NCBI RefSeq assembly: GCF_016903815.1
Contig: NZ_CP069973.1
DNA from: Escherichia coli
Lineage (GTDB): Bacteria; Pseudomonadota; Gammaproteobacteria; Enterobacterales; Enterobacteriaceae
Length of the DNA stretch: 64,000 nucleotides
Direction: 5' to 3' (one strand)
Shown: positions 8,866 to 9,619 of the stretch, piece after piece
Layout of the letters: every line of letters begins with the position of its first letter
Position numbering within the stretch: the first letter of the stretch is position 1
Program-made: the position numbers and the translations under genes
The notes under the pieces: model-generated
Told to the model about the DNA's origin: nothing
Database searches by the model: none
What the model saw: the letters and a program-made list of their open reading frames with translations, nothing else

Positions 8866-9021
8866 TTACTCCTCAGGTTCGTAAGCTGTGAAGACAGCGA
8901 CCTCCGTCTGGCCGGTTCGGATTCGTACCTCGCAGAGGTCTTTCCTCGTTACCAGTGCCGTCACTATGACGGTTAAACAGATGACGATCAGGGCGATTAA
9001 CATCGCCTTTTGCTGCTTCAT
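8866..9021 (-). CDS. hokD: Hok-family membrane toxin HokD (RelF), 51 aa
   Basis: Hand translation: MKQQKAMLIALIVICLTVIVTALVTRKDLCEVRIRTGQTEVAVFTAYEPEE; below the ORF-track cutoff. Confidence 0.85.
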   Translation of the reverse strand: MKQQKAMLIALIVICLTVIVTALVTRKDLCEVRIRTGQTEVAVFTAYEPEE

Positions 9022-9092
9022 AGCCTGCTTCTCCTGTCAACGCAAAGCAGAAGTGTCACCTTCGGTGCGAAACAGAGATGTCATGCTTTGGT

Positions 9093-9380
9093 TCAGAGAA
9101 TGCGTTTGACCGCCTCGCTATATACTTCCGAGCGTTCTCTTTTCCCAACAGAAATCACGAAAACGACAACTTTCTCGTCTATAACCTGGTATACAAGGCG
9201 ATAGCCTGAAGACCGGAGCTTAATCTTGTAACAATCAGGCATACCACGGAGCTTGTTTGCTTCAATCCGGGGTGACTCAAGTACTTCAACCAGCTTCTTT
9301 TTCAACTGTTCACGTACCGTCGAGCCCAGCTTTCGCCATTCCTTTAGTGCCCGCTCGTCAAAATCCAGAAAATACGCCAT
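9093..9380 (-). CDS. relE: RelE mRNA interferase toxin
   Basis: 95 aa MAYFLDFDERALKEWRKLGSTVREQLKKKL…. Confidence 0.9.
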   Translation of the reverse strand: MAYFLDFDERALKEWRKLGSTVREQLKKKLVEVLESPRIEANKLRGMPDCYKIKLRSSGYRLVYQVIDEKVVVFVISVGKRERSEVYSEAVKRIL

Positions 9381-9619
9381 CAGAGTTCATCCAGCGTCAC
9401 ACGTACTGGCTTAGGATTACGAAGCCGTTCTTTCACTATCTCCACAAGTTCAGCATCTTCATCACTCAGGAGTGTCTGTTTGAACGGCAAGCGTTCATTG
9501 TCAGCGATATACTCGAGCATGAGACGAAGCGCTTCAGAAGGAGTTACACCCATTTTTTCAAGCGCGGCGTAAGAACGCGCTTTAAGTTCATCGTCAATAC
9601 GCAGGTTAATGCTACCCAT
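9380..9619 (-). CDS. relB: RelB antitoxin
   Basis: 79 aa MGSINLRIDDELKARSYAALEKMGVTPSEALR…; 1-nt overlap with relE. Confidence 0.9.
   Translation of the reverse strand: MGSINLRIDDELKARSYAALEKMGVTPSEALRLMLEYIADNERLPFKQTLLSDEDAELVEIVKERLRNPKPVRVTLDEL

What the first reader, a model, noticed from the sequence alone, without database searches (positions are those of the whole stretch)
8866..9619. relB-relE-hokD toxin-antitoxin operon as prophage cargo near the defense cassette
Intact RelB, RelE (1-nt overlap) and a 51-aa Hok-family toxin are co-oriented in the same inter-module region as the IS and the kwaAB-like cassette. Toxin-antitoxin modules in prophages are implicated in abortive infection and prophage stability.
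Basis: established knowledge. Interest (0 to 1): 0.35.

Follow-up and report, generated by a model that had tools for sequence, protein, structure and literature searches.

The report
relBE transposon inserted in prophage hok
The three genes are the textbook E. coli relB-relE-hokD operon, but relBE appears to be the right-hand end of a 3.3-kb transposon that landed on the start codon of the prophage's own hok toxin gene.

Summary
relB (9380-9619), relE (9093-9380, 1-nt overlap) and hokD (8866-9021) are intact on the minus strand. Their DNA is 100% identical to the K-12 Qin-prophage relBEF operon, so the operon itself is already known.

The "prophage cargo" reading is only partly right. Window 9035-12308 (3274 bp) behaves as one IS1202-family (ISEsa1-like) transposon. 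It runs IRL, transposase, flxA, ydfV, relB, relE, IRR. The ends match 19/26 as inverted repeats and are flanked by a perfect 15-bp duplication, GGAGAAGCAGGCTAT.

That duplication is the hok ribosome-binding site plus the AT of the start codon. A related phage has the uninterrupted hok/sok locus, which serves as an empty site. The displaced hok leader and sok gene lie at 12309-12479.

The same two arms, with different cargo between them, occur on IncF and IncHI2 plasmids. There they sit at the same position of at least 10 different hok genes, each with its own duplication. K-12 keeps only the right part of the unit.

hokD is therefore a severed type I toxin gene transcribed from the relBE promoter. 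I found no publication describing this transposon. Its transposition, target choice and any anti-phage role are untested.

The parts
9380..9619 (-). relB, ribbon-helix-helix antitoxin and autorepressor (79 aa)
   Evidence: ORF. Pfam RelB 1e-32. NF008412 equivalog at 133 bits. Matches PDB 4FXE_A over residues 1-79. Same WP accession as in K-12.
9093..9380 (-). relE, ribosome-dependent mRNA endonuclease toxin (95 aa); its ATG shares one base with the relB stop codon
   Evidence: ORF. 95/95 identical to PDB 4V7K_Ay. Pfam ParE_toxin and TIGR02385 RelE_StbE.
9632..9655 (-). relO operator: two 12-bp half-sites, TTGTAATGACAT and TTGTAATTACAA, containing four [A/T]TGT[A/C]A hexads
   Evidence: Inverted and direct repeats found. 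Sequence confirmed. Matches the operator defined experimentally in PMC2812701.
8866..9021 (-). hokD (relF), a 51-aa Hok-family membrane toxin ORF; it is the original hok gene of the prophage
   Evidence: ORF. Pfam HOK_GEF 1e-23. Window 8700-9035 is 99.4% identical to the intact hok locus of phage mEp460_ev081.
8780..8865 (-). hokD 3' untranslated region with an intrinsic-terminator-like hairpin at 8780-8797
   Evidence: Terminator scan. The stretch is contiguous with the hok-locus homology to phages.
9035..12308 (-). Whole transposon-like unit (3274 bp): IRL, transposase, flxA, ydfV, relB, relE, IRR
   Evidence: The flanks are contiguous in phage L003, which acts as an empty site. The same unit is 99.7% identical on Enterobacter plasmid L004. 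It is flanked by 15/15 direct repeats here and in about 30 viral and metagenome contigs.
12283..12308 (-). IRL, left terminal inverted repeat: TGTTAACACCAAGCTGTAATGTCCCC
   Evidence: It is identical in the diverged IncHI2 copy, where the first 80 nt match 80/80 against 89% identity overall.
9035..9060 (+). IRR, right terminal inverted repeat: TGTCAACGCAAAGCAGAAGTGTCACC read from outside in; it lies in the 71-nt relE-hokD spacer
   Evidence: Matches IRL at 19/26 positions; P about 4e-7 at a fixed position. Found next to relE across genera.
9020..9034 (-). Right copy of the target-site duplication GGAGAAGCAGGCTAT; it supplies the ribosome-binding site and the A and T of the hokD ATG
12309..12323 (-). 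Left copy of the target-site duplication GGAGAAGCAGGCTAT
12309..12479 (-). Displaced 5' half of the hok/sok locus: hok mRNA leader with the mok start and the antisense sok gene, ending exactly at the AT of the hok ATG
   Evidence: Rfam RF01794 sok at 105.6 bits, covering model positions 1-157. 96.7% identical to the leader of the intact phage locus. That phage locus gives a 115-bit sok hit contiguous with hok.
10921..12234 (-). IS1202/ISNCY-family DDE transposase ORF (437 aa). It has a 27-nt in-frame deletion in the N-terminal helix-turn-helix region relative to the 446-aa plasmid copies. K-12 'ydfW' is its last 49 codons.
   Evidence: NF033594 transpos_ISNCY_2 at 456 bits. Pfam HTH_32 and rve_3. 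Alignment with the plasmid copies. Annotation.
9644..10484 (+). Variable cargo of this version of the unit: ydfV (9644-9949) and flxA (10152-10484)
   Evidence: Other plasmids carry nickel/chromate-resistance genes or a CDF transporter and cytochrome b in this position.
12242..12263 (-). Terminator-like hairpin just inside IRL, immediately before the transposase ATG

Best explanation
The locus is the canonical relBEF operon, and it is a chimera made by transposition.

Shown or established for identical proteins:
- RelB neutralises RelE and represses the promoter at relO, with RelE as co-repressor.
- Lon degrades RelB.

Shown by sequence comparison here:
- relB-relE with its promoter forms the conserved right arm of an IS1202-family (ISEsa1-like) transposon.
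- The left arm is the transposase. The genes between the arms vary: flxA and ydfV here, metal-resistance genes on plasmids.
- The unit (9035-12308) has TG...CA termini, 19/26 inverted repeats and a 15-bp target duplication (16 bp in some other copies).
- It inserted into the prophage's hok/sok locus so that IRR ends 13 nt before the hok ATG.
- The duplication recreates the hok ribosome-binding site and start codon. The hok promoter, the mok start and sok were pushed 3.3 kb upstream.

Consequence: hokD is transcribed by read-through from the relBE promoter across IRR. Co-transcription is shown in the literature for K-12. hokD has also lost the mok start region where Sok acts in the plasmid R1 hok/sok model (established knowledge), so it is probably outside Sok control.

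Inferred:
- The element prefers the hok translation-start region as a target, probably by reading a conserved leader sequence upstream of it.
- relBE serves the transposon as an addiction module and as an outward-reading promoter.

K-12 retains only the right 2.07 kb of the unit.
For: Identity with K-12.

Empty site: phage mEp460_ev081 has an intact hok/sok locus. Window 12492-12309 and 9035-8700 are contiguous in it, overlapping by the duplicated 15-16 bp.

Ends: perfect 15-bp repeats and 19/26 terminal inverted repeats. There is no IRL-like repeat between flxA and the transposase stop; the best match is 11/22.

Same arms, different cargo and different duplications:
- Enterobacter IncFII plasmid: 3.3 kb, TSD GGAGAAGAAGGCCAT.
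- IncHI2 plasmid: 6.1 kb.
- Serratia plasmid: 12.8 kb, 16-bp TSD.

Exact scans for the IRR tip found 15 genome, 46 viral and 47 metagenome contigs. relE was directly upstream in 10 of the 13 non-Qin genome loci tested and in most metagenome contigs. The hok ribosome-binding site and ATG were directly downstream in the large majority of the viral and metagenome contigs and 5 of the 15 genome loci. This covers at least 7 different flank 15-mers and at least 10 different Hok proteins.

The transposase is the ISNCY_2 equivalog at 456 bits. IS1202-family members have 24-26-bp imperfect inverted repeats and 16-17-bp duplications, and some are target-specific (PMC10132070).

A single relBEF transcript is detected with relB, relE and relF probes in K-12 (PMC3598666).

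K-12 shares only window 8700-11105 and has no sok match nearby.
Against: No transposition has been observed. The copy in the window has a 27-nt in-frame deletion in the transposase and may be inactive.

ISfinder defines ISEsa1 as 1609 bp with no duplication. A shorter autonomous IS that occasionally skips its own right end is therefore not excluded.

The boundary of the duplication is ambiguous by one base: 15 or 16 bp here.

Some copies have mismatched or swapped flanks: L028 has only a 6-bp repeat, and L087 and L068 are hybrids.

Many contigs descend from one Qin insertion and are not independent events.

Spread among hok loci by homologous recombination could inflate the apparent target preference.

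Whether hokD is translated from the relBEF mRNA is unknown. The fold of the spacer is not distinctive (z = -1.5).

Two older subscription papers could not be read and may already describe part of this: Pedersen & Gerdes 1999, and Ramisetty & Santhosh 2016.
Confidence: 0.8

Rival explanations
1. One reading: relB-relE-hokD is a single three-gene toxin-antitoxin operon carried by the phage as accessory cargo, like the neighbouring Kiwa cassette. It acts in abortive infection or prophage maintenance.
For: [quoted passage not shown] One deposited phage genome, PhiR42_1, carries the whole unit.
Against: Related phages have hok/sok alone at this position. The hokD segment occurs in 4722 of 5426 E. 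coli genomes, but relBE is linked to it in only 1162. relBE with the transposase sits at the same point of unrelated hok genes on plasmids. RelB, RelE and HokD match no PADLOC model.
Confidence: 0.12
2. A promoter-relB-relE cassette from a plasmid integrated into hokD by illegitimate or homologous recombination. The IS next to flxA is an unrelated later insertion.
For: A review states that relBE was acquired from plasmids and integrated into hokD (PMC6379469). relBE is 99.5% identical on Enterobacterales plasmids.
Against: The 15-bp duplication flanks the whole 3274 bp, not relBE alone. The outer ends are inverted repeats of each other. The transposase arm and the relBE arm co-occur with three different cargos. 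Each target allele has its own duplication.
Confidence: 0.06
3. The autonomous element is only the 1.6-kb IS (window about 10716-12308, equal to ISEsa1 as curated). The larger relBE-containing units are occasional transposition units made when the transposase uses a surrogate right end, as ISEcp1 does.
For: ISfinder lists ISEsa1 at 1609 bp. Homology between the cargo variants stops at 10716-10726.
Against: There is no inverted repeat at that boundary. ISfinder's curators found no duplication for that definition. The distal end matches IRL as well as bona fide family members do (19/26). The relBE-IRR arm is 98.8-99% conserved in every cargo variant examined, whereas surrogate ends would differ between events. 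A 1938-bp non-autonomous unit uses the same IRL and IRR.
Confidence: 0.15

Closest known systems
E. coli K-12 relBEF (relB-relE-hokD) operon of the Qin cryptic prophage
   Same: DNA is 100% identical over window 8700-11105. The proteins, the relO operator and the terminator are the same.
   Different: K-12 has lost the left 1.2 kb of the unit (most of the transposase and IRL), the hok leader with sok, Kiwa and the replication genes. The window keeps the complete unit and both halves of the split hok locus.
Intact prophage hok/sok loci (annotated MokW/hokW/gef; for example phage mEp460_ev081 and the PPompW/Stx phages)
   Same: The hok CDS and 3' UTR are 98-99% identical, the leader is 96.7% identical, and the downstream neighbours rem and ydfU/Q are the same.
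   Different: In those phages the leader, sok and hok are contiguous. Here 3274 bp separate them, and hokD lacks its promoter, the mok start and the Sok target.
IS1202 family (formerly the ISNCY IS1202 group), including ISEsa1 and the pdif-targeting ISAjo2 group
   Same: The transposase type matches. The imperfect terminal repeats are about 26 bp. The duplication is unusually long (15-16 bp against 16-17 bp in one subgroup). There is a strong target preference.
   Different: It carries passenger genes, including a toxin-antitoxin pair, between the transposase and IRR. Its target is the hok translation start rather than dif/pdif. The curated ISEsa1 is 1609 bp with no duplication.
Tn3-family transposons that carry type II toxin-antitoxin modules next to their transposition genes (recalled from my own knowledge; not checked here)
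   Same: A type II toxin-antitoxin pair is a conserved part of a transposon rather than of its cargo.
   Different: The transposase family and mechanism differ. Here the module sits at the element's tip, reads outward, and becomes fused to a type I toxin gene in the target.

Membership tests
RelBE type II toxin-antitoxin system | RelE-fold toxin with the catalytic residues K52, K54, R61, R81 and Y87 | tested here: met
   95/95 identical to wild-type RelE in PDB 4V7K. The residues were read directly from the translation. The residue list itself is from my own knowledge of Neubauer et al. 2009.
RelBE type II toxin-antitoxin system | Ribbon-helix-helix antitoxin gene directly upstream, translationally coupled to the toxin gene | tested here: met
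   RelB Pfam 1e-32. It matches 4FXE_A. The stop and start codons overlap as TGATG.
RelBE type II toxin-antitoxin system | relO operator with four [A/T]TGT[A/C]A hexads overlapping the promoter | tested here: met
   TTGTAATGACATTTGTAATTACAA at 9632-9655, compared with PMC2812701.
RelBE type II toxin-antitoxin system | Toxicity of RelE and its neutralisation by RelB | not testable with these tools
   Established in the literature for the identical K-12 proteins.
[quoted passage not shown] | Hok-family toxin ORF of about 50 aa | tested here: met
   HOK_GEF 1e-23 over a 51-aa ORF. HokD is toxic when overexpressed.
[quoted passage not shown] | Contiguous 5' leader (hok promoter, tac/ucb elements, mok start, Sok target) and an antisense sok gene directly upstream of hok | tested here: not met
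   There is no Rfam sok match adjacent to hokD in the window or in K-12. The leader and sok are at 12309-12479, separated from hokD by the transposon.
[quoted passage not shown] | hok mRNA 3' region (fbi element, processing stem-loops, terminator) | tested here: inconclusive
   The 3' region is 99.4% identical to that of an intact phage locus, and a terminator is present. Individual elements were not mapped, and the 5' pairing partner (tac) is not on the relBEF transcript.
IS1202-family transposable element | DDE transposase of the IS1202/ISNCY type | tested here: met
   NF033594 at 456 bits against a cut-off of 250. Helix-turn-helix and rve_3 domains are present. RefSeq names the plasmid copies 'IS1202-like element ISEsa1 family transposase'.
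IS1202-family transposable element | Imperfect terminal inverted repeats of about 24-26 bp | tested here: met
   19/26 with TG...CA tips. The family range is 15/22 to 23/29.
IS1202-family transposable element | Target-site duplications that differ between insertion sites | tested here: met
   Five different duplications were seen: GGAGAAGCAGGCTAT; GGAGAAGAAGGCCAT(G); GGAGTTGTATGGGTCC; TGGAGGGGCTATGATG; and GGTCTGGAATGAGAG against GGCCTGGAATGAGGG.
IS1202-family transposable element | Demonstrated mobility | not testable with these tools
   The support is only comparative: an empty site and multiple contexts.
Anti-phage defence or abortive-infection system | Match to a known defence-system model, or a demonstrated protection phenotype | tested here: not met
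   RelB, RelE, HokD and the transposase have no PADLOC hits, whereas the neighbouring KwaA and KwaB match strongly. The phenotype cannot be tested here.

The most novel reading that the evidence does not exclude
The paradigm relBE module is not free-standing chromosomal or phage cargo. It is the conserved outward-reading end module of an IS1202-family transposon that specifically targets the translation-start region of hok genes on plasmids and prophages. Each insertion severs a type I toxin gene from its promoter, mok and Sok control, and rewires it as the third cistron of a type II toxin-antitoxin operon. This may disarm or hijack the host replicon's hok/sok addiction system while bringing the transposon's own. 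The curated 1.6-kb 'ISEsa1' would then be only the left arm of the real element.
Probability: 0.5. Interest if true: 0.75.

Novelty: new variant of a known kind. Interest (0 to 1): 0.55.

Why it matters
relBE of K-12 is one of the most studied toxin-antitoxin systems. Its linkage to hokD (relF) has been treated as a curiosity.

If relBE is the end module of a hok-targeting transposon, several things follow:
- It explains why hokD lacks its regulatory 5' half.
- It explains why near-identical relBE is spread over IncF and IncHI2 plasmids and prophages of many genera.
- It explains why 'ISEsa1' shows no target duplication.
- It shifts the question of what chromosomal relBE is for towards selfish maintenance of a mobile element.
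- It gives a testable case of one addiction system inserting into and rewiring another, and of sequence-targeted insertion in the IS1202 family outside dif sites.

Tried and rejected
1. I first rejected the idea that the orphan sok/leader at 12309-12479 is hokD's missing half, because hokD seemed to keep about 35 nt of its own leader. That stretch turned out to be the transposon's IRR, and the empty-site alignment reversed the rejection.

2. I looked for an internal right inverted repeat near the transposase stop. None was found: best 11/22, and 17/26 elsewhere, which is chance level.

3. I considered site-specific recombination at a fixed core sequence. I rejected it because the duplicated sequence changes with the target allele.

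4. I considered spread by homologous recombination alone. This is unlikely for the Qin insertion, because both duplication copies carry the phage-type 15-mer. It probably does account for some hybrid flanks (L068, L087, L040).

5. The Rfam isrK hit at 8776-8857 scores 25 bits against a gathering score of 50. I treated it as terminator-driven noise.

6. The simple promoter scan did not find the relBE promoter. TTGCCC-17-GATACT upstream of relO is my reading only.

7. The RNA fold of the relE-hokD spacer is not distinctive (z = -1.5), so I make no claim about occlusion of the ribosome-binding site.

8. PADLOC gave nothing for the toxin-antitoxin proteins.

9. Ten literature searches found no description of the transposon. 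Ramisetty & Santhosh 2016 was requested by DOI and is not held; Pedersen & Gerdes 1999 was not looked up.
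Full report
**1. The observation**

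The three ORFs exist exactly as described, all on the minus strand:
- relB 9380-9619 (79 aa)
- relE 9093-9380 (95 aa)
- hokD 8866-9021 (51 aa)

The relB stop and relE start overlap by one base (TGATG). Pfam assigns RelB (1e-32), ParE_toxin (2e-13) and HOK_GEF (1e-23), and NCBIfam agrees.

Window 8600-10600 is 100% identical to E. coli K-12 MG1655. RefSeq gives the same protein accessions in K-12 and in the ExPEC-type strain 2779, whose chromosome matches window 1-25000 at 100%.

RelE is identical over 95/95 residues to wild-type RelE in PDB 4V7K, and RelB matches 4FXE chain A. K52, K54, R61, R81 and Y87 are all present.

The experimentally defined relO operator, with half-sites TTGTAATGACAT and TTGTAATTACAA (PMC2812701), is at 9632-9655. 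A terminator-like hairpin follows hokD at 8780-8797.

In K-12, probes for relB, relE and relF (hokD) detect one full-length transcript (PMC3598666).

**2. The surroundings**

On the minus strand, which is the early-right direction of the lambdoid prophage, the order is as follows:
- dicC, ydaT, replication genes, DUF977, QueH
- KwaA and KwaB (PADLOC 1e-101 and 5e-158)
- an Rfam sok/hok-leader match at 12308-12479 (105.6 bits, full model)
- an ISNCY-family transposase ORF, 12234-10921
- flxA and ydfV on the other strand
- relB, relE, hokD
- rem, ydfU, the Q antiterminator

The sok/leader match ends exactly at "GGAGAAGCAGGCTAT", where the IS sequence begins. hokD itself has no adjacent sok match, either here or in K-12.

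**3. Two homology blocks and an empty site**

The locus divides into two blocks with different relatives.
- Window 8770-9035 (hokD, its 3' UTR and 14 nt upstream) is 98-99% identical to the hok loci of many lambdoid phages. It occurs in 4722 of 5426 complete E. coli genomes.
- relBE linked to that segment occurs in only 1162 genomes.
- Window 9017-9670 (relBE plus the spacer) is about 99.5% identical on Enterobacter, Citrobacter and Klebsiella plasmids, where a different hok gene follows it.

Phage mEp460_ev081 has an intact hok/sok locus, with an Rfam sok hit of 115 bits contiguous with hok. It lies in the same place, upstream of rem, ydfU and Q.

Window 12492-12309 and window 9035-8700 align to adjacent stretches of this phage and overlap by the 15-16 bp GGAGAAGCAGGCTAT. 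The phage is therefore an empty site. In the window, 3274 bp (9035-12308) have been inserted, with a perfect 15-bp duplication at 12309-12323 and 9020-9034.

The right copy of the duplication provides the hokD ribosome-binding site and the AT of its ATG.

**4. The inserted unit looks like a transposon**

Its tips are 5'-TG...CA-3'. IRL (TGTTAACACCAAGCTGTAATGTCCCC) and IRR (TGTCAACGCAAAGCAGAAGTGTCACC, read from outside in) match at 19 of 26 positions. The probability at a fixed position is about 4e-7.

The transposase is the ISNCY_2 equivalog at 456 bits, with helix-turn-helix and integrase-core domains. There is no IRL-like repeat between flxA and the transposase stop; the best match is 11/22.

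The same unit is 99.7% identical on an Enterobacter IncFII plasmid. That copy has an intact 446-aa "IS1202-like element ISEsa1 family transposase". It lies between a hok leader and a different hok CDS and is flanked by GGAGAAGAAGGCCAT on both sides.

The window's transposase has a 27-nt in-frame deletion (437 aa). K-12 "ydfW" is its last 49 codons.

**5. Conserved arms, variable cargo**

Two more plasmids have the same left arm (window about 10716-12308) and the same right arm (window 9035 to about 9745: the relBE promoter, relB, relE and IRR; 98.8-99% identical). The genes between the arms differ.

| Host | Unit length | Cargo | Duplication |
|---|---|---|---|
| Window / IncFII plasmid | 3.3 kb | flxA, ydfV | 15 bp |
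| IncHI2 plasmid | 6093 bp | ISEsa2, cytochrome b, CDF transporter | 15/15 |
| Serratia IncF plasmid | 12,843 bp | ncrABCY, chrB and others | 16/16 (GGAGTTGTATGGGTCC) |

In the IncHI2 copy the transposase region is only 89% identical to the window's. Even so, the first 80 nt and last 80 nt of that unit match the window's at 80/80 and 79/80 positions.

relBE is therefore part of the element's backbone, not its cargo. A 1938-bp unit in Mangrovibacter has the same IRL and IRR but neither transposase nor relBE. It is flanked by 13/15 repeats and is apparently non-autonomous.

**6. Target preference**

I ran exact-match scans for the 20-nt IRR tip. They found 15 loci in species-representative genomes, 46 viral contigs and 47 metagenome contigs.
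- relE at 90-100% identity lies directly upstream of the IRR in 10 of the 13 non-Qin genome loci tested and in most metagenome contigs.
- In the viral contigs the same relE 3' end and stop codon precede the IRR throughout.
- Directly downstream, the large majority of the viral and metagenome contigs, and 5 of the 15 genome loci, have a hok ribosome-binding site and ATG, with the IRR tip 13 nt before the ATG.
- This holds across at least 7 different 15-mers: GGAGAAGCAGGCTAT, GGAGAAGAAGGCCAT, GGAGAAGAAGGCTAT, GGAGAAGTAAGCTAT, GGAGAAAAAGGCTAT, GGAGGAGTAAACCAT and TGGAGGGGCTATGAT.
- It also holds across at least 10 different Hok-family proteins, including a PndA-like one.

Where IRL is on the same contig, the 15 nt on the two sides are identical in about 30 contigs. 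The unit length is 3274 bp, or 3301/3302 bp with the intact transposase. One copy has a 16-bp duplication, GGAGAAGAAGGCCATG.

Two contigs show IRR, the 15 bp and then IRL in tandem. One copy faces the reverse-complemented leader. A minority of copies sit at non-hok sites (L012, L013/L025, L014, L020, L112), and a few have mismatched or swapped flanks (L028, L068, L087).

The duplicated sequence follows the local hok allele, so these are staggered-cut insertions and not recombination at a fixed core. The Serratia/Klebsiella case keeps only the GGAG of the target, followed by the end of another IS. This suggests that the recognised determinant lies in the conserved leader upstream. That is an inference.

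**7. How it most likely works**

Established for the identical K-12 proteins:
- RelE cleaves A-site mRNA.
- RelB neutralises RelE and, with RelE as co-repressor, represses the promoter at relO.
- Lon degrades RelB.

Shown by sequence here:
- The relBE promoter reads outward across IRR into whatever lies beyond.
- In hok targets, that is a hok CDS with its ribosome-binding site and start codon regenerated.

Inferred:
- The hokD mRNA lacks the mok start and the Sok target. hokD is therefore controlled by RelB/RelE autoregulation rather than by Sok.
- relBE acts as an addiction module for the transposon or its carrier.
- hok loci are favoured because they mark plasmids and prophages.

A terminator-like hairpin lies just inside IRL, before the transposase ATG (12242-12263). 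It may shield the transposase from the hok promoter.

Whether HokD is made from the relBEF mRNA is unknown. The spacer fold is not distinctive. Every hok CDS read next to an IRR that was not cut by a contig end was full-length.

**8. Comparison with what is known**

The operon is the K-12 relBEF operon. K-12 shares only window 8700-11105, so it has lost IRL, most of the transposase and the hok leader.

The element fits the IS1202 family in transposase type, in its roughly 26-bp imperfect repeats, and in having long duplications and target-specific members (PMC10132070).

That paper lists ISEsa1 as 1609 bp with "no TSD detected". This length is close to the left arm alone (1593 bp here, 1620 bp with the 27 nt restored). 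That would explain the missing duplication, but I could not check the reference sequence.

A review states that relBE came from plasmids and "integrated" into hokD (PMC6379469). Neither that review nor a 2026 survey of Hok mentions a transposon.

Ten full-text searches found no description of one. Ramisetty & Santhosh 2016 is not held in the library; Pedersen & Gerdes 1999 was not looked up, and neither was read.

Toxin-antitoxin pairs as integral parts of Tn3-family transposons are known to me from memory. That is a lead, not a test.

**9. Verdict**

The "prophage cargo operon" interpretation is only partly supported. An anti-phage role has no support here.

The added finding is that relBE is the right arm of a hok-targeting IS1202-family transposon and that relBEF is a transposon-target fusion. 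It is well supported comparatively, at about 0.8 confidence for the anatomy. It has not been tested experimentally and, as far as I could search, has not been described.

Noticed in passing
window 12718-14357 (-): A complete Kiwa pair lies directly upstream of the displaced hok leader: KwaA at 13743-14357 (PADLOC 1e-101) and KwaB at 12718-13740 (PADLOC 5e-158). In phage mEp460 this slot holds a different gene.
   Followed up: partly
window 10921-12234 (-): The transposase has a 27-nt in-frame deletion that removes SINRHITQE from the N-terminal helix-turn-helix region, compared with the 446-aa plasmid copies. Both the 3274-bp and the 3301/3302-bp versions of the unit occur in prophage contigs. 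RefSeq splits this single ORF into a 'partial ISNCY transposase' and 'ydfW'.
   Followed up: partly
L115 and L118 (metagenome contigs): IRR, a 15-bp hok target and then IRL of a second copy lie in tandem. This could mean repeated insertion into the regenerated target, or a tandem or circle-junction-like form.
   Followed up: no
L009 (Serratia pE28_001) and L008 (Klebsiella pCRE24_2): The same transposon arms enclose a nickel/chromate-resistance region of about 11 kb (ncrABCY, chrB and others). The element therefore moves metal-resistance genes on clinical IncF plasmids.
   Followed up: partly
window 8881-8883 (-), hokD codon 47: Tyr47 is encoded by TAC within CUUACGAA, the UACG context reported for TadA A-to-I editing of hok mRNAs, which recodes Tyr to Cys.
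   Followed up: no
window 8776-8857 (-): A weak Rfam isrK match (25 bits against a gathering score of 50, E = 0.02) overlaps the hokD 3' UTR and terminator. The same match is present in K-12. It is probably driven by the terminator.
   Followed up: partly
window 9644-9949 (+), ydfV: The ydfV ORF starts inside the conserved relBE arm (homology to the other cargo variants ends at about 9745) and runs into the variable cargo. It has no Pfam or NCBIfam match, so its status as a gene is doubtful.
   Followed up: no
window 4177-4635; 22763-25378; 14566-15231: Other features of the prophage: an IS200C between ynfU and cspB; an IS66-family ISCro1 between the excisionase and integrase genes; and a QueH-like epoxyqueuosine reductase gene next to Kiwa (annotation).
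   Followed up: no
L013 and L025 (Cedecea, and a contig labelled Chryseobacterium): Diverged copies of the relE-IRR end lie 31 nt upstream of the same membrane-protein gene (MARAKMKFRLHRAV...); RelE is 66% identical in L013 and 93% in L025. This is a second recurrent, non-hok target.
   Followed up: no
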